60,814 bases of DNA. Origin: a virus (lineage: Duplodnaviria; Heunggongvirae; Uroviricota; Caudoviricetes). The stretch is from the IMG/VR virus record IMGVR_UViG_3300037418_000950; one strand, given 5' to 3'. Under the pieces are notes generated by a model. That model was not told where the DNA came from. It searched no databases and saw only the letters and a program-made list of their open reading frames with translations. Positions 507-11,956 of this stretch are shown in pieces (positions within the stretch are counted from its first letter, which is position 1; each line of letters begins with the position of its first letter). A program made the translations under genes and the position numbers.

Positions 507-3005
507 TTATTGAAGGTCTGAGGATGTGTTACTGACCAGCGCTTCGGGAGCTTGTTGCTCAACGGGGGCTGGAGTTTCATCCGCAGGTGTTGTAGCCGTT
601 TCCGCTTCGGGCGCGGTTGGCGCAGGTGGCGGTACGGCGTTTGCGTCAGCGACTGGTGCTGACACTTCTTGAGGAGACGCAGATGAAACATCTGATGTTG
701 TCGGATCAGTGGGTGCAGGTTGAACTGGCACTGGATTGGGAACAACACTTGCTGTATCCGCGGGAGCATCAGAAGATGCTGGAGCTACAACAGGTGCAGC
801 ATCAGCGGGTGCATCGGGCGTTGTGGTTGCGTCAGGTGTTGCGGGCGTTGCGTCAATCACAACTGGAGTGCTGGTTGTGTCAGGCGCGGGAGCCGTTTGA
901 TCAACTGGTGATCCAACATCCGTAGAGGTCACAACTGGTGTACCAGCGGCGACAACGGCGGTTGAAACATCCTTGCTCACATCCACACCAAGTTCACTCA
1001 AAGCCTTATCAGCTTCGGGGGTCGTCGCAACGACGATATCATGTTCATCGGGTGCCGTGACGACAGGCGTCAGAGTGGCATCCGCGGGAACTTGACCTTG
1101 CGTATCCGAGAGTACAACCTTCTTACCACTTTCGTCTTCGACTACATCAGCCTTGACGACGGTTTGAAGGGTGTCAGGAACCGCAATCGTTACAGGGGCT
1201 GCGGTCGCATCGGCGGTCGGTTGAACGACAACATCAGCGGGTGCGGCATCCTTGGTTTCTTCGGTTGCGGGCGGTGGCGGATCGGGAAGCGTCACACCAG
1301 CGGGCGCAAGTTCAATTGCATCCTTGGCTGATTGTAGAACGTCAATGCCCTTATCCTTCATTTCGGCTTGGTGATCGGCGTCAACCGCGACAACAACGTC
1401 TGCATTGCTGTCAGGCGTCTTGGCGACAGTTGTGACCACATTGTCCGAAACGATTTCGTGGGTTGAGTCCGACAGGGTGACCGTTGCTTGAGGTTCGGCC
1501 GATTGTTGATCAACAACGGGCTTCACGTCCGTGACTTCGGCGGTCACGACTTGCGGAAGCTCTTTGGGAATTTCGACAGTGGTTGTGGCCACGACCGAGT
1601 TTTGATCGTTGGTGACGACAGGCACCGTATCAGAGACAGGCGTGCTTGTCACGTCGGGAGCCGCAGCCTGGACCGCTTGCGAAATGGCCGTTGACGGGTC
1701 AACACCAGCGTTTACGAGGGTATCGTGAACTTCGGGCGGGACCGCAGCAACCACGTCGTTTTGGCCAGCCTGTGTAACCACAGGAACCAGAACGCTATCG
1801 GCGGGGATATTGGTGCCGTCCGATGGCGTCAGGGCCACGGCAGGAACCGTGCCTGAATTGTCGGCTTGCACCGCAGTCGTCACGTTGACGACAGGGGTTA
1901 GGGTGTCAGGAACTTGGACTTCGACCTTGGGGGCGTCCACATTGTTGTCTGCCACAGGAACAGGCGTAGTGTCTGTTACGACAGGGGCAGGCTCAACGGG
2001 GGCCACCGAAACGTCGGGATGATCGAGTGCAGCACTGACAGAAGCGGGAATATCAATTCCAGCGGCATTAGCGGCTGCCACTGTATCAGGTGACATTGCC
2101 ACCACCACATCAGGCTTGCCTTCATCGGTTTTTACAGTCGTTAGAGTTGCGTTATCCGATACTTCGTGAGTCGCGTCCTGCAACGTCACGGTTGCCTGGG
2201 GTTGGTCAGATGAATTGCTGACGCTTGGAACCACGTCAGAGACTGTAGCTTCGACAATCGGCGGGACGACAACAGGTGTGTCCACCGTGACCGTAGGTGC
2301 CTTGGCCGTATCGTCATTGACAACAACTTGCGTTGTTTCAGGGGCGGTTTCGACGGGGGCAGGTGCGGGAGTATCAGCTACAGGAGTATCAACAGGCGCG
2401 GGTGCTGGAGGGGTCACCACCGCGGCCTGTTGATCTTCGACCGTTGGGAGTTCCAACGGCACAGCCACTTCACTGTTCGGGTCGGAACCCGTAGGAATCA
2501 TGACAGGCGAACCTGCCGAGTTATATTCCACAGTGTAAGGTACATCGGACTTTGGCAATGGTCCGATAGGAAGCGTTGTTAATTCCCTCGGAGAATTGGT
2601 ATCTGTGAAGACGACACTGAGAATGCCATCATCAAGATTTGCTTCCTTGAAGGCGAGGTTACGAGCAACCAAGAACTTGGCCGAGACCTTACCACCAGCA
2701 AGAATACCTTGATGGAAATAAACGTCGTCGGATGCGCTGGTTGAATCGAAGCCAACATTAGTCGTCGCTTCGATTGTTAGGTGTTTGGGATCAAGGGTTG
2801 CCTTGATATCCTTGCGATCTACCCCTGTAAGGTCAAGCTCAAGAGTATAACCACCGTCTGAGGTTTTCTTGATATTGTAGGGCGGGATCGCGGTTACGTC
2901 TTCGACAGATGTAGCATCATCTACACTGTCAATTAAATCCAGAACTGGATCAAAGCCAATGCCGAGCTTACCGACATATGACTTATATCCTTTACTTTTA
3001 GCCAT
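507..3005 (-). CDS. Hsp20/IbpA-like small heat-shock domain fused to ~700-aa acidic Pro/Val/Ala/Thr/Asp-rich repeat region
   Basis: N-terminal IGFD...PPYNIKK...YTLELDLTGVDRKDI...YFHQGI...ANLDDGILSVVF (alpha-crystallin pattern); four internal ~90-aa repeats. Confidence 0.8.
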   Translation of the reverse strand: MAKSKGYKSYVGKLGIGFDPVLDLIDSVDDATSVEDVTAIPPYNIKKTSDGGYTLELDLTGVDRKDIKATLDPKHLTIEATTNVGFDSTSASDDVYFHQGILAGGKVSAKFLVARNLAFKEANLDDGILSVVFTDTNSPRELTTLPIGPLPKSDVPYTVEYNSAGSPVMIPTGSDPNSEVAVPLELPTVEDQQAAVVTPPAPAPVDTPVADTPAPAPVETAPETTQVVVNDDTAKAPTVTVDTPVVVPPIVEATVSDVVPSVSNSSDQPQATVTLQDATHEVSDNATLTTVKTDEGKPDVVVAMSPDTVAAANAAGIDIPASVSAALDHPDVSVAPVEPAPVVTDTTPVPVADNNVDAPKVEVQVPDTLTPVVNVTTAVQADNSGTVPAVALTPSDGTNIPADSVLVPVVTQAGQNDVVAAVPPEVHDTLVNAGVDPSTAISQAVQAAAPDVTSTPVSDTVPVVTNDQNSVVATTTVEIPKELPQVVTAEVTDVKPVVDQQSAEPQATVTLSDSTHEIVSDNVVTTVAKTPDSNADVVVAVDADHQAEMKDKGIDVLQSAKDAIELAPAGVTLPDPPPPATEETKDAAPADVVVQPTADATAAPVTIAVPDTLQTVVKADVVEDESGKKVVLSDTQGQVPADATLTPVVTAPDEHDIVVATTPEADKALSELGVDVSKDVSTAVVAAGTPVVTSTDVGSPVDQTAPAPDTTSTPVVIDATPATPDATTTPDAPADAAPVVAPASSDAPADTASVVPNPVPVQPAPTDPTTSDVSSASPQEVSAPVADANAVPPPAPTAPEAETATTPADETPAPVEQQAPEALVSNTSSDLQ

Positions 3006-3529: not shown

Positions 3530-3617
3530 GATTGAAATTAGGGTTTATATGAATTGACCTAATTTCGGGAGGGCCCCTAATATTCTATGAAAATTTATTC
3601 TACCACTTGATTTCCAT

Positions 3618-3869
3618 TTATTCCTTATCCTTTGTGTGTGGGGGACCAAGCGAAAGGTCCCATCCGTAATATGCGAAACCTGAAAGAGGGATTGACACAA
3701 GCAACATTACAGGCCCTGCGGCCAATCCTAAAACACATGCTATTCCTAAATTCTGGCGACGTTCCAGCGGTGAATCCAAAATAGGAAATTTATTCTTGAA
3801 ATAGGCATTCATAAAGCCTGCCCCGAGCAAGCCGCAACTAAACCAGAATAAGAAAAAACCTATCGTCAT
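3618..3869 (-). CDS. Small 2-TM membrane protein (likely start 3869; ORF track start 3893)
   Basis: Two hydrophobic segments; ATG directly after stop of upstream ORF. Confidence 0.65.
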   Translation of the reverse strand: MTIGFFLFWFSCGLLGAGFMNAYFKNKFPILDSPLERRQNLGIACVLGLAAGPVMLLVSIPLSGFAYYGWDLSLGPPHTKDKE

Positions 3870-3870
3870 T

Positions 3871-4002
3871 TTATTCGACTTTCTCATTGTCATCCAACCA
3901 TTTTATCAAGATACCCCATCCTGCTAATACCAAGAATAACAAGAAGGGCGAATAGGAAAACAATTGCCAATAGAAGTCGTAATAGACTTTCAATAGTTCC
4001 AT
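3871..4002 (-). CDS. 43-aa single-TM protein (below ORF-track cutoff)
   Basis: Hand translation MELLKVYYDFYWQLFSYSPFLLFLVLAGWGILIKWLDDNEKVE; fills the gap between tRNA and next gene. Confidence 0.55.
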   Translation of the reverse strand: MELLKVYYDFYWQLFSYSPFLLFLVLAGWGILIKWLDDNEKVE

Positions 4003-4017
4003 GATATATCCGAAAAT

Positions 4018-4092
4018 TGGTGTCCCTGGCCAGATTCTAACTGGCAACCGATCCGTTTAGAGTGGATTGCTCTAACATTGAGCTACGGGGAC
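4018..4092 (-). tRNA. tRNA with CUA anticodon (amber suppressor), encoded CCA
   Basis: GTCCCCG-TA-GCTC-AATGTTA-GAGC-A-ATCCA-CT[CTA]AA-CGGAT-CGGTT-GCCAG-TTAGAAT-CTGGC-CAGGGAC-A-CCA; 75-nt cloverleaf, U33, A15:U48, U19-A56. Confidence 0.85.
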
Positions 4093-4259
4093 TTAAGAGG
4101 TTCAATCGATGATCGTTGCGTGCTGTCAATTTTGACATTCGATGCGCCGAACAACCATTTCAAAAAATCGTCTCGGGATATTTGAATTTTGTTTTTATAT
4201 AACCCATCAGATACTTCAATAGTCATATAGACAGGATCAAAAGTAACCTCGATATGCAT
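4083..4259 (-). CDS. 58-aa hypothetical protein whose TAG stop lies inside the suppressor tRNA
   Basis: GAGGGG SD then ATG at 4259 (MHIEVTFDPVY...); stop equals tRNA positions 8-10. Confidence 0.55.
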   Translation of the reverse strand: MHIEVTFDPVYMTIEVSDGLYKNKIQISRDDFLKWLFGASNVKIDSTQRSSIEPLKSP

Positions 4260-4275
4260 TTTCCCCTCGAAACAT

Positions 4276-4384
4276 TGGAGGCCCGTTAGCACCTAATGGG
4301 TTGTTTCGTTGGATTGAAACAGTGATCCATAAGATACCCCACACGTCTATAGCCGCTACAAGGACTTCTTATACGCGACGGGCC
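4276..4384 (-). ncRNA. Putative 109-nt structured RNA with tRNA-like acceptor stem and 3' CCA
   Basis: 5' GGCCCGT pairs perfectly with 3' ACGGGCC followed by T-CCA; internal hairpin TGTTTC-AATCCAAC-GAAACA; within tRNA cluster. Confidence 0.55.
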
Positions 4385-4397
4385 AAGCGCGTAATTC

Positions 4398-4472
4398 TGG
4401 CACAGGAGGGGCAGAGTCGAACTCCCATCAACGGGTTTGGAGGCCGTTGCTTTACCGTTAAGCTACACCTGT
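4398..4472 (-). tRNA. tRNA-Trp (CCA anticodon)
   Basis: ACAGGTG-TA-GCTT-AACGGTA-AAGC-A-ACGGC-CT[CCA]AA-CCCGT-TGAT-GGGAG-TTCGACT-CTGCCC-CTCCTGT-G-CCA; G73; a few mismatches and a T-stem bulge. Confidence 0.85.
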
Positions 4473-4479
4473 ATAAAAC

Positions 4480-4565
4480 TGGTAGCGGAAGCGCGATTTG
4501 AACACGCGTGGATCACCGTATGAGGGTGCGCTGGGGCCTGATTACCTCTCCAGACTATTCCGCGA
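4480..4565 (-). tRNA. Atypical tRNA with CAU anticodon (Met/fMet/Ile2 unresolved), enlarged D region
   Basis: CGCGGAA acceptor with C1 mismatch, CT[CAT]AC loop, GCGTG-TTCAAAT-CGCGC T-arm, ACCA end; 86 nt. Confidence 0.7.
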
Positions 4566-4570
4566 TAAAA

Positions 4571-4629
4571 GGTGATGACAAGGATACTTCGGTGTGGAAG
4601 GAGGTGATGTGAATATCCCCGTCATCACC
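4571..4629 (-). ncRNA. Late-promoter-proximal 18-bp hairpin displaying anti-Shine-Dalgarno sequence in its loop
   Basis: GGTGATGAC/GTCATCACC (9 bp) plus GGGGATATT/AGTATCCTT (9 bp incl. G-U); loop CACATCACCTCCTTCCACACCGA. Confidence 0.55.
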
Positions 4630-4631
4630 AG

Positions 4632-4639
4632 TATTTATA
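4632..4639 (-). promoter_or_regulatory. Late promoter TATAAATA driving the RNA cluster
   Basis: Exact consensus 2 nt upstream of the hairpin. Confidence 0.75.
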
Positions 4640-4656
4640 ATACCAAATTTTTGGCA

Positions 4657-6054
4657 CTATGTCAAGCTACTTCTGACTTTCTTCTGTAGGCTTGAGAACG
4701 AATGTCTGGCATATACGATGCCTGAGTCATAGACGGCATCGAGCCCCGACGTGATACGACCAGCCTTCGATGCCTTTGACTTATCCGTTGACGGATTTTT
4801 CGATACAGGTTCCCATTCATCCACATTATCAAACGAGATAGCATTGCACTTCATGGCGAAGCTCAGAGTATCACGATTGACTTTTTGAAGTAGAGCCCCG
4901 CCCATACCGAACACCACATTCTCAGCCGACCAGCCTTTTGCTGTTACAGCATAGAGGATATCATCTATGGAGAAGTAATTAATCCCATCACCTTGTATAA
5001 CTCGTACAGAAGGGTGCAGGACTTTGTAACCAAGGGAGTTTGTGGTGTAACCGAAATGGTTGCCAAGTGATGCAATAATACGAGGTACGAGGTCAACAGG
5101 GTCGCCAGAATCAGGACGGACAACAATGCGACCGCCTTTGTCCAAAATTTTGTCATGAAGAAAATCCCCTATAATGTTGTCCACGGCATTCATCGTGTCA
5201 TAGCTATCGATGACAACCGCATAGATTTTTCCTTCACCGCCGAACTGATCAATCATATTCGAGTAGGCATCGGACTCGCGAGTCTGACCCCATGAGGTAA
5301 TGGTGGCGTGCTCGGCCGCGGGAATTGAGTATCCCGCAATGTAATCCGTTATGAATGGACCTTCTGTGCGGTTCTTTGCATCAAAATGGAATTCGGGATA
5401 CCACCGATCCGCATCATATAAAGCTTCTATAGTATCGCTACCATTAAAAGAAAGCAAATGAGCCATGCCCCCGAGGCCAGCGGACTCTGCGCTTGATACG
5501 CCTCTATCACCAAAATCGTGTAGAGCAAAATCCAGAACCCCTTTATTAGCTTCGTCAACAGATTCATCCCAATATCTTTTCATCATCTTCTTGATTGAAT
5601 AGGACAGCGTTGCCACCGTCGTCGGGTACCAGATGGCTCTAAGCATCGCCGTTTCGAGGTAGCTTGTTAGCCACGGCACCTGAGGATCAGTGTTGCGGAC
5701 CTGGACCAGAGGCGTACCGATATCGACAACCGAGCCTTCTGGGATGGATTCAATGAGAAGCGGTAAGCGGCCTTCGTGTTCGGCAAAGATATGCCGCCAG
5801 CCTGCCTCATTGAACGGAACGCCATGCAAGCCTGCCACCTTTTTAGCAAGCTCAATATCACGCGGCAGGAATGTGCCATCCATCAAGTATTTCTTGATGA
5901 ACGCCTGCAATCCAAAGAACACTACCTTGTCGGTACGAATTTCCTTGGGATTGGTTTTACGAGCTTCAATGTAGGAAGAAACGTATTTGGTACCTTCTGG
6001 ATATTGAAGGTAATGACTCCATTTGTACGAGTCACTGTGTTTGATAATATTCAT
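4657..6054 (-). CDS. nadV: Nicotinamide phosphoribosyltransferase (NAMPT/NadV)
   Basis: SDSYKWSH, HDFGDRG, SIPAAEH, VVRPDSGDP, IQGDG, FGMGGALLQKVNRD motifs. Confidence 0.93.
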   Translation of the reverse strand: MNIIKHSDSYKWSHYLQYPEGTKYVSSYIEARKTNPKEIRTDKVVFFGLQAFIKKYLMDGTFLPRDIELAKKVAGLHGVPFNEAGWRHIFAEHEGRLPLLIESIPEGSVVDIGTPLVQVRNTDPQVPWLTSYLETAMLRAIWYPTTVATLSYSIKKMMKRYWDESVDEANKGVLDFALHDFGDRGVSSAESAGLGGMAHLLSFNGSDTIEALYDADRWYPEFHFDAKNRTEGPFITDYIAGYSIPAAEHATITSWGQTRESDAYSNMIDQFGGEGKIYAVVIDSYDTMNAVDNIIGDFLHDKILDKGGRIVVRPDSGDPVDLVPRIIASLGNHFGYTTNSLGYKVLHPSVRVIQGDGINYFSIDDILYAVTAKGWSAENVVFGMGGALLQKVNRDTLSFAMKCNAISFDNVDEWEPVSKNPSTDKSKASKAGRITSGLDAVYDSGIVYARHSFSSLQKKVRSSLT

Positions 6055-7173: not shown

Positions 7174-7520
7174 TACCGCAATGCCTTCAAAATGTTGATG
7201 CACTCGTTATAGATGCGACCAGAATCGATGCTGTATTCTTGTTGGTTGCGATAGTACATGAGTGTCACAACATCCAACATACGATTGGCATATCCCATGG
7301 CCTGGACGTGTGCGGGACCTTCCCAATTATGTTCACCCTTTTTGACTTCATAATCCCATGGGTCGGACAACGTAATTAATTGATGGTCTTTAAGATAAAG
7401 CGCAAGTTGCTTGTCCATAGACAGCTTCTTGACTTCATCCCGTCGCCGTTTCGCCTCAACAAGAGACGCTTCCAAAGTATCGATATGCTTGGTTAGGCTT
7501 TCATAACTTTCGAGTGCCAT
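7173..7520 (-). CDS. Hypothetical protein
   Basis: 115-aa ORF with GGAG SD. Confidence 0.7.
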   Translation of the reverse strand: MALESYESLTKHIDTLEASLVEAKRRRDEVKKLSMDKQLALYLKDHQLITLSDPWDYEVKKGEHNWEGPAHVQAMGYANRMLDVVTLMYYRNQQEYSIDSGRIYNECINILKALR

Positions 7521-7523
7521 TGT

Positions 7524-7856
7524 CTACTCCATAAAACGAAATGCGATTGGTTTGCCAATGTTGCGGGCGTGCTGAACTTCCATTTCGACTCCCGTGGATT
7601 CATGCCATCCATCGAGCGCCAGAACCCACAATTCTTGACACGCATCAATCATGGCCTTGTCGAAATGTTCCCAAAACGCAAACTCTTTCGGTAAGTCAAA
7701 CTTCGCCGCCAGCGGATGGCAATGCACGATTGGGGAATAGATCACGAACCCTTCATTGATTTTTCGGGCGGTGAATTCCAGAACCTTTTCGTAGCGGTGT
7801 TCGACCACCTTGGGATCGGCATGAGTGTAGGGAGAAGATACAAAAATGAAGCTCAT
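7524..7856 (-). CDS. DUF1937 / nucleoside 2-deoxyribosyltransferase-like protein (likely start 7856)
   Basis: FVSSPYT...YSPIVHCHPLA...MIDACQELWVLALDGWHESTGVEMEV pattern; GGAG SD before MSFIFV. Confidence 0.7.
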   Translation of the reverse strand: MSFIFVSSPYTHADPKVVEHRYEKVLEFTARKINEGFVIYSPIVHCHPLAAKFDLPKEFAFWEHFDKAMIDACQELWVLALDGWHESTGVEMEVQHARNIGKPIAFRFME

Positions 7857-7884
7857 AGGTTTCTCTTGATTACTGCGACGGGTG

Positions 7885-8061
7885 TTATTGGTTTGTAATA
7901 TACAACCACACAAATGCGAACGCGATGGCGATATAAAGGAATAGGTTCCAACCAATATCAAGCCATGCTGCATACAGCATTAGGCCAGTGGCAATTAGAC
8001 AAGTGCCGATGATGGCGAATACGATGCTCCAGGCAAAGACATTGAGAATGTTGAATATCAT
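7885..8061 (-). CDS. 58-aa 2-TM membrane protein (below ORF-track cutoff)
   Basis: Hand translation MIFNILNVFAWSIVFAIIGTCLIATGLMLYAAWLDIGWNLFLYIAIAFAFVWLYITNQ; ATGA overlap with upstream ORF. Confidence 0.6.
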   Translation of the reverse strand: MIFNILNVFAWSIVFAIIGTCLIATGLMLYAAWLDIGWNLFLYIAIAFAFVWLYITNQ

Positions 8062-10773: not shown

Positions 10774-10852
10774 TGGTAGGGGAGGTGGGGGTCGAACCCA
10801 CAGACGACCCTGATTTTAAATCAGGCGGCGATACCAGTTAGCCTACTCCCCC
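10774..10852 (-). tRNA. tRNA-Leu (UAA anticodon) with short variable region
   Basis: GGGGGAG-TA-GGCT-AACTGGTAT-CGCC-G-CCTGA-TT[TAA]AA-TCAGG-GTCGTCT-GTGGG-TTCGACC-CCCAC-CTCCCCT-A-CCA. Confidence 0.88.
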
Positions 10853-11052
10853 ACTTTTTCGAACCCCCGTATGTATCCTTTGTCATCTGCGAAATACTTC
10901 AACAGATGTTGCCCACAGCGGCAATCTATGTATTTGTCTCCCCCAGGCGTCAGCTTGACTGTACGTCGCGCGCCATAGGGAATGCAAAGAACGTCTTCGA
11001 CAACTTTGACTTGATCGTTCTCGTGAAGATCAGTCAGTAAGAACTTTCCCAA
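10843..11052 (-). CDS. 69-aa hypothetical protein whose TAG stop lies inside tRNA-Leu
   Basis: ORF track; stop equals tRNA positions 8-10. Confidence 0.55.
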   Translation of the reverse strand: MGKFLLTDLHENDQVKVVEDVLCIPYGARRTVKLTPGGDKYIDCRCGQHLLKYFADDKGYIRGFEKVGE

Positions 11053-11170
11053 CCTTGAATTTCTTCCGAGAATATACCTTTTTCGACTTGACTACCTTTG
11101 GTTTGAAAGGTGAGTCTTTCGCGTAAAGTTCAAGGGCTCTATACTTCGGGCGTTTTGAAACTTTTTCCAT
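11030..11170 (-). CDS. 46-aa basic ArfA-like (alternative ribosome-rescue factor-like) protein
   Basis: Hand translation MEKVSKRPKYRALELYAKDSPFKPKVVKSKKVYSRKKFKVGKVLTD; PF(K/R)x(K/R)V-x-K-x-K-K-x-Y-x-R-K resembles the ArfA core. Confidence 0.5.
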   Translation of the reverse strand: MEKVSKRPKYRALELYAKDSPFKPKVVKSKKVYSRKKFKVGKVLTD

Positions 11171-11403: not shown

Positions 11404-11544
11404 TTATTTTTCCTTATGCTTCTTCATACATTCTTCGATAACTTTTTTGGCCCGTTCAGAGGGCATGTCTCCAATATCGATGTAGAATATTTTCGATTCC
11501 TTGCCGTCCTGAATGCGTTTGATTATTTGAATATCGTTACTCAC
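11404..11544 (-). CDS. 46-aa mini-protein similar to a conserved portal (gp20) segment
   Basis: GTG start overlapping regA end; KIFYIDIGDMPSERAKKVIEECMKKHKEK vs portal RVFYIDVGDMPHAKAQQYVQDIIAKHKSK. Confidence 0.55.
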   Translation of the reverse strand: MSNDIQIIKRIQDGKESKIFYIDIGDMPSERAKKVIEECMKKHKEK

Positions 11545-11956
11545 TAATCTTCTTCTTTCCGCCCATAGAATACTTACTGACCAATTTCCAATTTGGTCGG
11601 TCCTTATAGGCAATCACTTTGATGTGGTTCATCGCTGCCATTGGTTGCAGCATTTCAGGCGGCGAGACAATCTTGCAACCTGGAATCCATTGTTCCAATA
11701 GGGTTGCGATGCGGTTGCGGCGTGCCTTATCTTCTTCGGAAAAATCCGTATCCTTGCCGTCGAGGGCGAACATTTCTTTGAAGTGAACGATGTAGTAGTG
11801 CCCCTGTTTGTGCAGGATATGACAGCTTTGATACAGCGTGTTATCCCTACGGGACGCGATACCTACTCGTTCAAGTGTTTCAAGAATTTTTAGAAAGTCG
11901 TTACGTTCAGCTAATTTCACTTCAATGAACGTAGAAATCAATTCATTATTTGACAT
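11537..11956 (-). CDS. regA: Translational repressor RegA
   Basis: DFLKILETLERVGIAS...LYQSCHILHKQGHYYIVHFKEMFALDGK. Confidence 0.95.
   Translation of the reverse strand: MSNNELISTFIEVKLAERNDFLKILETLERVGIASRRDNTLYQSCHILHKQGHYYIVHFKEMFALDGKDTDFSEEDKARRNRIATLLEQWIPGCKIVSPPEMLQPMAAMNHIKVIAYKDRPNWKLVSKYSMGGKKKISE

What the first reader, a model, noticed from the sequence alone, without database searches (positions are those of the whole stretch)
4018..4629. Integrated late RNA cassette suggesting a phage translation-takeover module
Seen: one late promoter (4632-4639) heads a compact array: anti-SD hairpin, tRNA(CAU), tRNA-Trp, 109-nt CCA-ended RNA, mini-ORF, amber-suppressor tRNA. The window also encodes tRNA-Leu, an ArfA-like protein, peptide deformylase and RegA. 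Inference: these act together to retune initiation, termination and ribosome rescue late in infection, or to counter tRNA-cleaving and abortive-infection defences. I do not recognise this combination as a described system.
Basis: inference. Interest (0 to 1): 0.8.

Follow-up and report, generated by a model that had tools for sequence, protein, structure and literature searches.

The report
Conserved phage tRNA operon with odd RNAs
This is a real, conserved tRNA operon of an uncultured soil T4-like phage; beside a normal tryptophan tRNA and an amber-suppressor tRNA it encodes an irregular initiator-like tRNA, a leader hairpin showing the ribosome's anti-Shine-Dalgarno sequence, and a member of a widespread, apparently undescribed pseudoknotted tRNA-end mimic, but nothing shows that the parts act as one "translation takeover" machine.

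Summary
Almost all listed elements exist at the stated places, on the minus strand between nadV and small membrane-protein genes. I found the array, in the same order, in four other phage lineages whose NadV is 56-83% identical, so it is under selection.

Corrections to the observation:
- The "late promoter" is a near-consensus host-type promoter (TTGACA-17-TATTAT) that overlaps TATAAATA. That motif is not enriched in the window.
- The "tRNA(CAU)" is an irregular tRNA derived from initiator tRNA.
- The CUA tRNA is related to T-even and E. coli Ile2-type CAU tRNAs, and its D-loop/T-loop elbow pair changes on both sides.
- The "109-nt RNA" is an H-type pseudoknot that mimics a tRNA acceptor end. 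It belongs to a family with about 55 distinct members in phage contigs, many inside tRNA arrays, and it has no Rfam match.
- The "ArfA-like" protein is not supported. RegA, peptide deformylase and tRNA-Leu are real but lie 6-13 kb away.

Best reading: a T4-type tRNA operon cut by host tRNA-processing enzymes, most plausibly insurance against tRNA-targeting defences. Coordinated retuning of translation remains speculation. It is a new variant of a known kind, and the pseudoknot RNA family is the most novel part.

The parts
4637..4665 (-). Host-type (sigma-70-like) promoter TTGACA-17-TATTAT with an upstream TG. Its downstream edge overlaps TATAAATA (4632-4639).
   Evidence: The consensus scan matches 11 of 12 positions. 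TTGACA and TATAAATAC are kept in L015, L016 and L153. TATAAATA is not enriched in the window.
4571..4629 (-). 5' leader hairpin with a stem of about 13-18 bp. The loop shows CATCACCTCCTT (4598-4609), identical to the 16S rRNA 3' end (anti-Shine-Dalgarno).
   Evidence: Fold energy -26.5 kcal/mol, z = -6.6. The 13-bp stem is kept in three lineages with 2 compensatory pairs, and 12 loop bases are invariant amid variable, indel-rich loop flanks. The hairpin is absent in L018 and L153.
4480..4564 (-). Irregular initiator-derived tRNA(CAU). Position 1:72 is unpaired, the acceptor reads G2 C3 G4 G5, the anticodon loop is CUCAUAC and CCA is encoded. The D region is about 10 nt too long in this phage.
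   Evidence: Not called by ARAGORN or Rfam. Alignment with E. coli metZ shows the initiator-type D arm and variable loop. RNAalifold recovers a cloverleaf in which 11 of 21 pairs have compensatory changes.
4398..4472 (-). tRNA-Trp (anticodon CCA, discriminator G, CCA encoded).
   Evidence: ARAGORN and Rfam at 39.7 bits. Present at the same place in L015, L016, L018 and L153.
4276..4393 (-). Pseudoknotted tRNA-end mimic. S1 is UACGCG (4388-4393) paired with CGCGUA (4372-4377). Its loop is CUU plus GGCCCGU (4378-4384), and GGCCCGU pairs with ACGGGCC (4280-4286). U-CCA follows (4276-4279). An inner hairpin has a UCCAA loop (about 4302-4321).
   Evidence: Family found with an 18-mer and its degenerate form. 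In S2, 55 of 58 independently chosen members are complementary (GGC/GCC, GAU/AUC, GGU/ACC). On 32 sequences 100% of S2 cells pair and no shuffle reaches the covariation score. The outer S1 pairs covary. No Rfam match.
4083..4259 (-). Conserved 58-aa protein gene of unknown function. Its last codons (K-S-P) and its TAG stop overlap the 5' acceptor strand and positions 8-10 of tRNA(CUA).
   Evidence: Protein alignment gives 50-60% identity to the L015 and L016 products and 24% to L153. There is no Pfam match. The indexed protein search returned no hit other than the window's own product.
4018..4092 (-). Amber-suppressor-type tRNA (anticodon CUA, discriminator A, CCA encoded). It belongs to the T-even/E. 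coli Ile2 CAU-tRNA lineage.
   Evidence: ARAGORN labels it 'Pyl' only because of the anticodon. Rfam scores it 58.5 bits. The best database match is the T6 tRNA(CAU). Six lineages keep the loop CUCUAAA, and 14 of 19 pairs have compensatory changes. The elbow pair 19:56 is U-A here and G-C in L018; I read it as A-U in L154.
10774..10852 (-). tRNA-Leu(UAA), a separate gene 6 kb upstream of the cassette.
   Evidence: ARAGORN and Rfam. Also present in L015.

Best explanation
The stretch is the head of a conserved tRNA operon of an uncultured soil or rhizosphere T4-like phage.

**Transcription.** A host-type promoter that also contains the T4 late motif starts transcription at the foot of a stable hairpin.

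**Processing (inferred).** Host tRNA-processing enzymes (RNase P at the 5' ends, 3' trimming) cut the precursor into:
1. a leader hairpin RNA that displays the anti-Shine-Dalgarno sequence;
2. an irregular tRNA(CAU) derived from initiator tRNA;
3. tRNA-Trp;
4. a pseudoknotted RNA whose 7-bp helix plus N-CCA tail copies a tRNA acceptor end;
5. the mRNA of a small conserved protein;
6. a CUA tRNA able to read UAG.

Transcription probably runs on into the downstream membrane-protein and Hsp20-fusion genes, because no terminator follows.

**What is shown.** All these elements are real and are held by selection.

**What is inferred.**
- The tRNAs give the phage private copies of single-isoacceptor tRNAs (initiator-type, Trp). 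These keep translation going when host tRNAs are cleaved or run short.
- The CUA tRNA causes low-level amber read-through, which the phage tolerates by almost never ending genes in TAG.
- The pseudoknot RNA is an RNase P/CCA-enzyme substrate that serves as a processing signal or as a decoy of a tRNA end.
- The leader RNA pairs with Shine-Dalgarno sequences.
For: **T4-like context**
- RegA, gp62, gp44 and gp45, UvsY, prohead protease and neck protein are present.

**Promoter**
- One search finds the host-type promoter. It is conserved in L015, L016 and L153.

**Synteny**
- The array is syntenic in L015, L016, L018 and L153.

**Covariation**
- CAU tRNA: 11 of 21 pairs have compensatory changes.
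- CUA tRNA: 14 of 19 pairs, plus three versions of the 19:56 elbow pair.
- Hairpin: conserved stem with compensatory pairs.
- Pseudoknot.

**Layout precedent**
- The T6/T4 tRNA region shows the same layout of tRNAs, an untranslated stretch after tRNA-Arg and inserted ORFs.

**Pseudoknot RNA in tRNA arrays**
- In 11 or more other phage contigs the pseudoknot RNA sits inside tRNA arrays, on the tRNA strand, a few nucleotides from neighbouring tRNAs.
- RNase P is reported to cleave loop 1 of pseudoknots that end in RCCA (PMC12710915, abstract).

**TAG usage**
- TAG ends only 4 of 71 genes, and no large gene in the window is interrupted by TAG.

**Defence precedent**
- VapC toxins cleave initiator tRNA and tRNA-Trp (PMC5175351).
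- Phage tRNAs neutralise tRNA-cleaving defences (PMC11464382, PMC11555353).

**Expression (weak)**
- Contigs from two rhizosphere RNA libraries cover 3600-4497 in pieces. The deepest piece spans 4284-4497. This is presence only.
Against: - There are no end-mapped RNA data. Contigs cannot show processing, and RNA libraries may contain DNA.
- The host is unknown, so neither codon need nor the host's defence repertoire can be checked.
- The CAU tRNA lacks the three G-C pairs needed for initiator function. It has an abnormal T loop in three lineages and an abnormal D region here, so its decoding role (initiator, elongator Met or Ile2) is open.
- The parts are separable. L016 lacks the pseudoknot RNA, L018 and L153 lack the hairpin, L154 has only tRNA(CUA), and L152 has none.
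- RNase P substrate rules do not explain the extreme sequence conservation of the pseudoknot core.
- No mRNA in the window has an extended match to the anti-SD loop.
Confidence: 0.6

Rival explanations
1. Plain codon supplementation. The phage (47% G+C) carries tRNAs only to match its own codon usage in a host with different tRNA supply. The odd RNAs are tolerated variants with no special role.
For: The same genome carries tRNA-Leu(UAA) for the A/U-rich codon UUA. UUA and AUA are used at 5.4 and 7.2 per thousand codons. This is the classic explanation for phage tRNAs (my own knowledge).
Against: UGG and AUG are single-codon families, so there is no rare-codon argument for tRNA-Trp or tRNA(CAU). 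A suppressor tRNA supplies no sense codon. The non-canonical shapes are conserved with covariation rather than drifting.
Confidence: 0.2
2. The cassette, together with RegA, peptide deformylase, tRNA-Leu and an ArfA-like protein, is one coordinated late module that retunes initiation, termination and ribosome rescue.
For: An initiator-like tRNA follows directly on a conserved anti-SD leader in three lineages. A suppressor tRNA and an ORF that would lose its stop codon on tRNA processing lie in the same transcript. RegA and peptide deformylase are present.
Against: The late timing is not shown. The ArfA-like protein is not supported. RegA and peptide deformylase lie 7-13 kb away and are ordinary phage genes. 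The parts come and go independently among relatives. The phage's own genes mostly use Shine-Dalgarno sites (65 of 71 have a match of 3 nt or more), so a general anti-SD sponge would hit them too.
Confidence: 0.1
3. Code switch. The CUA tRNA serves genes elsewhere in the roughly 125-kb or larger genome that carry in-frame TAG codons, as in TAG-recoded gut phages.
For: Phages with recoded TAG carry suppressor tRNAs (bioRxiv 10.1101/2021.08.26.457843; PMC10879173). tRNA(CUA) is conserved in six lineages. TAG is rare as a stop.
Against: All 71 genes in 60.8 kb, including replication and structural genes, are intact under the standard code and tile the DNA with few gaps. In L015 and L018 nadV ends in TAA rather than TAG, so no conserved read-through site is evident there.
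Confidence: 0.07
4. The non-standard elements (CAU element, 109-nt RNA, hairpin) are decaying tRNA remnants or chance structures.
For: tRNA finders and Rfam miss them. The single-sequence fold of the CAU element is no better than shuffles (z = -0.8).
Against: Compensatory changes occur in all stems across lineages. The anticodon loop and the anti-SD block stay invariant amid diverged flanks.
Confidence: 0.03

Closest known systems
tRNA gene region of T4/T6 (tRNA cluster with the stable RNAs rnaC/rnaD and inserted ORFs such as segB and trna.2-4)
   Same: It is a T4-like phage. Tightly spaced same-strand tRNA genes are mixed with a non-tRNA structured RNA and small ORFs (T6 record). tRNA(CUA) is about 78% identical to the T6 tRNA(CAU).
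   Different: The tRNA set is different (initiator-like CAU, Trp, CUA). I saw no sequence likeness between the pseudoknot RNA and the T6 stretch downstream of tRNA-Arg, where rnaC/rnaD lie in T4 (read by eye). A conserved anti-SD leader is present here. That T4 rnaC/rnaD are tRNA-like stable RNAs is from my own knowledge.
Phage tRNAs that defeat tRNA-cleaving defences (T5 tRNA-Lys against PARIS, PMC11464382; tRNAs against retron effectors, PMC11555353)
   Same: The tRNAs are phage-encoded and have altered loops or stems. The tRNA species concerned here (initiator, Trp) are known targets of PIN-domain VapC toxins (PMC5175351).
   Different: No defence system or host is known here. Resistance of these tRNAs to any nuclease is untested.
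Suppressor tRNAs of stop-codon-recoded phages (code 15 crAss-like and Lak phages)
   Same: A CUA-anticodon tRNA is encoded by a phage, and TAG is avoided as a stop.
   Different: No in-frame TAG occurs in 60.8 kb. The phage is a soil T4-like phage, and the tRNA descends from an Ile2-type CAU tRNA rather than from tRNA-Gln.
Bacterial initiator tRNA (E. coli metZ)
   Same: They share the D arm GAGC/GCUC with A11:U24, the variable loop AGGUC, the acceptor G2 C3 G4 G5, an unpaired 1:72 in most copies and the anticodon CAU.
   Different: The three consecutive G-C pairs of the anticodon stem are missing. Position 38 is C in four of five copies. The T loop is enlarged by 2-4 nt in three lineages, or the D region by about 10 nt here.
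Pseudoknotted acceptor arms of plant-virus tRNA-like structures, and pseudoknot substrates of RNase P (PMC12710915)
   Same: A hairpin loop pairs with a 3' segment to build an acceptor-like helix that stacks on the hairpin stem and ends in N-CCA. Loop 1 is 3 nt, which fits a 7-bp helix.
   Different: It is encoded in DNA phages, inside tRNA arrays or between two conserved ORFs, not at the 3' end of an RNA genome. It has no anticodon arm. Aminoacylation and RNase P cleavage are untested.
Theta (minimal HDV-like) ribozymes next to phage tRNAs (PMC10879173)
   Same: It is a small pseudoknotted RNA placed directly beside tRNA genes in phages, some of them suppressor tRNAs.
   Different: The strand order does not fit the HDV fold. 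There is no P3/L3 hairpin between the two 5' strands and no conserved junction C after a P4. No Rfam HDV-type model matches.
sRNAs with C-rich or anti-SD loops, and sRNAs cut from tRNA precursor spacers (e.g. 3'ETS-leuZ; my own knowledge)
   Same: A hairpin loop of CCUCC type is able to pair with ribosome-binding sites. The RNA would be released as the 5' leader of a tRNA precursor.
   Different: There is a single hairpin, a 12-nt identity to the 16S 3' end, no target identified and no Rfam family.

Membership tests
T4-type phage tRNA gene cluster | Several tRNA genes, closely spaced on one strand, in a T4-like genome | tested here: met
   Two canonical tRNAs plus one irregular tRNA lie within 550 nt. 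T4-like core genes are in the window.
T4-type phage tRNA gene cluster | Co-transcription as one precursor and processing by host RNase P and other RNases | not testable with these tools
   Only a promoter consensus and the absence of a terminator-like site between the elements are available. RNA contigs cannot show ends.
Amber suppressor tRNA | Complete cloverleaf with a 7-nt anticodon loop carrying CUA | tested here: met
   Rfam 58.5 bits. The loop CUCUAAA is invariant in six lineages, and 14 of 19 pairs are compensated.
Amber suppressor tRNA | Is charged and inserts an amino acid at UAG | not testable with these tools
   Identity elements (U35, A73) suggest Lys or Gln by analogy with engineered E. 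coli suppressors (my own knowledge).
Bacterial initiator tRNA | Unpaired 1:72, with G2:C71 and C3:G70 (formylation determinants) | tested here: met
   By my own reading of the sequences, 1:72 is C/U in the window and L015, U/U in L018 and A/A in L153, but paired U-A in L016. One search adds a likely paired A-U in L234. Pairs 2:71 to 5:68 are constant.
Bacterial initiator tRNA | Three consecutive G-C pairs (29:41, 30:40, 31:39) in the anticodon stem | tested here: not met
   The stems are UUUGC/GCAAA, UUGCC/GGCAA, CUGGC/GUCAG, CAUCC/GGAUG and CACC/GGUG. The RNA is therefore not filed as an initiator tRNA, only as initiator-derived.
Stop-codon-recoded phage (TAG as sense codon) | In-frame TAG codons in conserved genes | tested here: not met
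   All 71 genes of the window are intact under table 11. The rest of the genome was not available.
T4 late promoter | TATAAATA used as the -10 element of late genes of this phage | tested here: inconclusive
   The motif is present at 4632-4639 and kept in relatives. It occurs only 3 times in the window (1.4 expected) and never before the structural genes. A gp55-like sigma factor is only weakly detected.
tRNA-like structure with pseudoknotted acceptor arm | The loop of a 5' hairpin pairs with a 3' segment, giving a helix that ends in N-CCA | tested here: met
   In 55 of 58 members the variable triplet is complementary. S2 is 100% paired with two covarying pairs. The tail is N-CCA in most members, but UCA or no CCA in some short-type members and in L153.
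HDV-like (theta) ribozyme | Nested double pseudoknot with P3/L3 between P2 and P1', and a catalytic C in J4/2 | tested here: not met
   There are zero nucleotides between S2a and S1b, and no conserved sequence upstream of S1a or downstream of S2b. No Rfam match.
ArfA (alternative ribosome-rescue factor A) | Match to the ArfA family profile or motif | tested here: not met
   The 46-aa ORF at 11030-11170 has no Pfam hit at E<=1. No KGKGSY-type motif occurs in any frame.

The most novel reading that the evidence does not exclude
The '109-nt RNA' represents a new, phage-specific class of structured RNA: an H-type pseudoknot that rebuilds a tRNA acceptor end, with an almost invariant core. It is spread through tRNA arrays of many unrelated uncultured phages. 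It would act as a dedicated tool, either as a new self-processing or RNase P-guided punctuation element, or as a decoy of tRNA 3' ends against defences that attack the acceptor end. In this lineage it would work together with an initiator-like tRNA and an anti-SD leader RNA to give the phage a private start-and-stop decoding set.
Probability: 0.2. Interest if true: 0.85.

Novelty: new variant of a known kind. Interest (0 to 1): 0.58.

Why it matters
Phage tRNA genes have recently become central to the arms race with tRNA-cleaving bacterial defences. Standard tRNA finders and Rfam miss most of what this operon encodes.

It offers four concrete, testable objects:
- an initiator-derived tRNA that breaks the rules for initiators yet is conserved;
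- an amber suppressor in a phage that shows no stop-codon recoding in the 60.8 kb available;
- a tRNA-leader RNA that copies the ribosome's anti-Shine-Dalgarno sequence;
- a widespread pseudoknotted acceptor-end mimic with no database family.

If the last one proves to be a processing element or a decoy, it would add a new kind of player to tRNA maturation or anti-defence in phages. It would also improve annotation of phage tRNA arrays.

Tried and rejected
**Searches that found nothing**
- No whole genome is held for this window, so TAG usage outside the window could not be checked.
- blastn against GenBank phages found no relative of the cassette apart from T-even tRNA hits. It found no copy of the pseudoknot RNA either.
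- IMG/VR searches with NadV and DNA polymerase gave only distant contigs (37-53% identity) without the cassette.
- A degenerate tRNA(CUA) pattern found nothing in IMG/VR.
- The indexed protein search did not find the homologues of the small ORF that are visible in L015 and L016.
- blastn of the CAU and CUA tRNAs against E. coli genomes gave only chance hits or none. The E. coli tRNA genes were therefore fetched by coordinate.

**Pattern scans with many chance hits**
- Most of the 120 metagenome hits to the 18-mer were chance matches in GC-rich coding DNA (86 of 119 distinct sequences; mean local G+C 65% against 51%).
- My loose pattern for the CAU tRNA returned about 100 chance hits and only one new member, L234.
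- The genome-collection scan gave only two MAG contigs.

**Identities considered for the pseudoknot RNA and rejected**
- Rejected on topology or on the absence of any Rfam match: RNase P RNA, tmRNA, YrlA/Y RNA, SRP RNA, known riboswitches, and HDV-like, pistol, hatchet and hammerhead ribozymes.
- A rewired tRNA-Trp, with UCCAA read as an anticodon loop, was rejected because position 37 is not always a purine and there is no T arm. Reading UCCAA as a T-loop-like element fits better.
- Resemblances of GCCCGUC and AAGUC to the 16S decoding site were judged coincidental.

**Other negative or inconclusive results**
- No literature hit for the core sequence. The supplement of the viral structured-RNA catalogue is not held.
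- The search for an mRNA target with an extended match to the anti-SD loop found none in the window.
- RNA-library contigs: nadV (4657 onwards) has no cover in the two RNA runs, but a hole in contig cover proves nothing. The small shares in freshwater runs correspond to two short, near-identical pieces only.
- Amber read-through of nadV as a programmed event was rejected, because its TAG stop is not conserved.
Full report
**Context.** The window is 47% G+C and every credible gene lies on the minus strand. It is part of a T4-like phage. RegA, clamp loader gp62/gp44 and clamp gp45 are present. So are UvsY, prohead protease, neck protein and a tail-tube-like protein, and the NAD salvage pair NadV/NatV with a macrodomain protein. 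Near-identical DNA occurs in several soil and rhizosphere metagenome runs. No close relative exists among GenBank phages, and no whole genome is held.

**Anatomy on the minus strand, read 5' to 3'.**
- nadV ends at 4657.
- A host-type promoter, TTGACA-17-TATTAT with an upstream TG (11 of 12 consensus positions), lies at 4665-4637. Its end overlaps TATAAATA at 4639-4632.
- Transcription from either motif would start at the foot of a hairpin (4629-4571; -26.5 kcal/mol; z = -6.6). Its loop holds ATCACCTCCTT, the only copy in the window.
- Six nucleotides later comes an 85-nt element with a CUCAUAC loop and a CCA end (4564-4480).
- tRNA-Trp follows (4472-4398), then a structured RNA ending U-CCA (4393-4276).
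- Next is a 58-aa ORF with its own GAGG ribosome site (4259-4083), then tRNA(CUA) (4092-4018).
- No terminator-like site was found between the elements or after the last tRNA. The small membrane-protein genes and the Hsp20-fusion gene downstream are therefore probably in the same transcript.

**Is it conserved?** NadV homologues led to syntenic contigs.
- L015 (NadV 83% identical) and L016 (78%) carry the promoter, hairpin, CAU element, tRNA-Trp, small ORF and tRNA(CUA) in the same order. L015 also has the structured RNA, and L016 lacks exactly that unit.
- L018 (63%) has the CAU element, tRNA-Trp, the structured RNA, a different 100-aa ORF and tRNA(CUA), but no hairpin.
- L153 (56%) has the promoter, CAU element, tRNA-Trp, a shortened structured RNA, two small ORFs (the second related to the window's ORF) and, further on, tRNA(CUA).
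- L154 (55%) keeps only tRNA(CUA), and L152 (59%) has none.
- The core is thus co-conserved over considerable divergence, but the units are separable.

**Promoter.** 'Late' is not established. The host-type promoter is nearly perfect and is conserved. In L153 the -10 element is the TATAAAT itself, 18 nt from TTGACA. TATAAATA occurs only three times in the window against 1.4 expected, and never upstream of the structural genes. A gp55-like sigma factor is only weakly detectable. The site may serve early and late, but that is inference.

**Leader hairpin.** Three lineages keep a 13-bp stem with two compensatory pairs. They also keep an invariant 12-nt block, CATCACCTCCTT, while the loop flanks differ in sequence and length. 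The block equals the 3' end of 16S rRNA (established knowledge). Its conservation amid variable flanks argues for function. No mRNA in the window has an extended complement to it. Most phage genes here use ordinary 3-6-nt Shine-Dalgarno matches. The hairpin would be released as the 5' leader when RNase P cuts the CAU tRNA (inferred). Whether it titrates ribosome-binding sites, acts in cis, or only stabilises the 5' end cannot be decided.

**CAU element.** ARAGORN and Rfam miss it in every lineage.
- Alignment with E. coli tRNA genes fetched from the K-12 record shows the hallmarks of initiator tRNA. These are the D arm GAGC/GCUC with A11:U24, the variable loop AGGUC followed by G, and the acceptor G2 C3 G4 G5.
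- Position 1:72 is unpaired in most copies, followed by one discriminator base and CCA.
- RNAalifold on four phage copies plus metZ recovers the cloverleaf, and 11 of 21 pairs have compensatory changes.
- The three G-C pairs of the initiator anticodon stem are absent.
- Three lineages share an enlarged T loop (GAGCAUUUCC). The window's copy has a normal UUCAAAU T loop but a D region about 10 nt too long.
- A further copy with the odd T loop sits in a 310-kb IMG/VR contig.
- It is therefore a selected, initiator-derived, irregular tRNA. Earlier follow-ups of this scan reported other non-cloverleaf tRNAs in the same phage genome, which I did not retest.

**tRNA(CUA).** ARAGORN's 'Pyl' label only reflects the anticodon.
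- The gene is most similar to the T6 tRNA(CAU). It shares the G-N-C-C-C acceptor start with that tRNA and with E. coli ileX.
- Six lineages keep the loop CUCUAAA, and 14 of 19 pairs show compensatory changes.
- The tertiary 19:56 pair is U-A in three lineages and G-C in L018; I read it as A-U in L154.
- TAG ends 4 of 71 genes, and no conserved gene in the window needs TAG read-through. nadV's TAG stop is not conserved.

**The '109-nt RNA'.** An 18-mer shared by the window, L015 and L018 was found in 11 IMG/VR contigs and in more than 120 metagenome contigs. Most of the metagenome hits are chance matches in GC-rich genes. About 30 distinct sequences carry a second conserved block, (G)CUAACGG-NNC-N-CCA, 45-130 nt downstream. 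A degenerate scan raised the total to about 55 distinct members.
- The structure has a stem S1 (CGCG/CGCG plus 1-3 covarying outer pairs). The first outer position pairs in 29 of 33 members using four pair types, against 43% in the chance hits.
- The S1 loop is CUU plus seven bases. These seven bases pair with the 3' block, forming S2.
- When members are chosen only by the invariant part of the 3' block, the variable triplets match in 55 of 58 cases (GGC/GCC, GAU/AUC, GGU/ACC).
- On a 32-sequence alignment S2 is 100% paired with two covarying pairs, and no shuffle reaches the covariation score. L153 adds GCG/CGC.
- With 3 nt in loop 1 and none between S2 and S1, this is a classical H-type pseudoknot. 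In it a 7-bp helix carrying N-CCA stacks on S1, which is the design of plant-virus tRNA-like acceptor arms.
- The interior holds AUAAGUC, a hairpin, GGGGU, and a hairpin with a UCCA(A) loop that reads best as a T-loop-like element.
- Long-type members sit inside phage tRNA arrays on the tRNA strand, often touching the neighbouring tRNAs. Short-type members lie between two conserved ORFs of unknown function.
- No Rfam family matches the window's copy or eight other loci that carry a copy. Two members queried against GenBank phages found nothing. Only two MAG contigs among about 185,000 species genomes hold it. The core sequence appears in no held paper.
- RNase P is reported to cut loop 1 of pseudoknots that end in RCCA (PMC12710915), which fits the mostly G-CCA tails. 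That does not explain the near-invariant core.
- HDV-like theta ribozymes also flank phage tRNAs (PMC10879173), but the strand order here does not fit that fold.

**Small ORF.** Its product is 50-60% identical between the window, L015 and L016, and 24% identical to an L153 product. It is therefore a real gene of unknown function (no Pfam match). In three lineages its last three codons and its TAG stop lie in the 5' strand of tRNA(CUA). RNase P cleavage would then leave the mRNA without a stop codon (inference).

tRNA-Leu(UAA), RegA and peptide deformylase are real. The 46-aa 'ArfA-like' ORF has no support.

**Expression.** Contigs from two rhizosphere RNA libraries cover 3600-4497 in pieces, the deepest spanning 4284-4497. 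Contigs show presence only, and DNA carry-over cannot be excluded.

**Reading.** The best-supported account is a T4-type tRNA operon whose products are excised by host tRNA-processing enzymes.
- Why these tRNAs? UGG and AUG are single-codon families, so codon supply is a weak reason.
- Initiator tRNA and tRNA-Trp are known targets of VapC toxins (PMC5175351), and phage tRNAs are known to neutralise tRNA-cleaving defences. I therefore favour insurance against tRNA attack, as an inference.
- The idea that all parts, with RegA, peptide deformylase and a rescue factor, form one late takeover module is not supported. It is not excluded either for the trio of anti-SD leader, initiator-like tRNA and suppressor.

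**Verdict.** The finding is a real feature and a new variant of a known kind. Its most novel component is the pseudoknotted acceptor-end mimic family.

Noticed in passing
window 11404-11613 (-); also L015 2211-2357: A free-standing 69-aa ORF just after regA matches a segment of the T4 portal protein family (PF07230, 2.7e-08). A 48-aa gene with the same Pfam family on record is called at the same place in L015.
   Followed up: no
window 7518-7526 (-): The DUF1937 gene (7524-7973) ends in TAG, and the next gene's ATG (7520) is in frame one codon later. Amber read-through would fuse the two proteins. The gene order differs in L016, so the arrangement is not conserved.
   Followed up: partly
L076 1732-2116 (-), beside the pseudoknot RNA at 2387-2495: A phage tRNA array of 11 tRNAs also holds a tmRNA gene with the tag AANDNGAFETRLAA, and a copy of the pseudoknot RNA.
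   Followed up: no
L035 303-339 (-): An Rfam abiF RNA motif (RF03085, 42.2 bits, above its gathering score) lies about 210 nt upstream of a short-type pseudoknot RNA.
   Followed up: no
L234 about 810-890 (+), 310-kb IMG/VR contig: Another irregular initiator-like tRNA(CAU) with the enlarged GAGCAUUUCC T loop, in an unrelated jumbo-phage contig.
   Followed up: partly
L019 6761-7983 (-) and L036 2486-3908 (+): Short-type pseudoknot RNAs always sit between the same two conserved ORFs (50% and 67% identity between the two contigs). Neither ORF has a Pfam family.
   Followed up: partly
window 507-3005 (-); L154 4461-5072 and 5773 onwards: The 832-aa protein downstream of the cassette has only a weak, sub-threshold Hsp20 match. 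The relative L154 has clear HSP20-domain genes at the same place.
   Followed up: no
L015 7656-7958 (-): A 100-aa ORF on the opposite strand is inserted between tRNA-Trp and the pseudoknot RNA in this relative only. It has no Pfam match.
   Followed up: no
window 4571-4629 (-): The hairpin's 5' strand GGUGAUG can pair either with its 3' strand or with the CAUCACC inside the loop. The anti-SD block could thus be exposed or half-hidden by alternative folds (read from the sequence).
   Followed up: no
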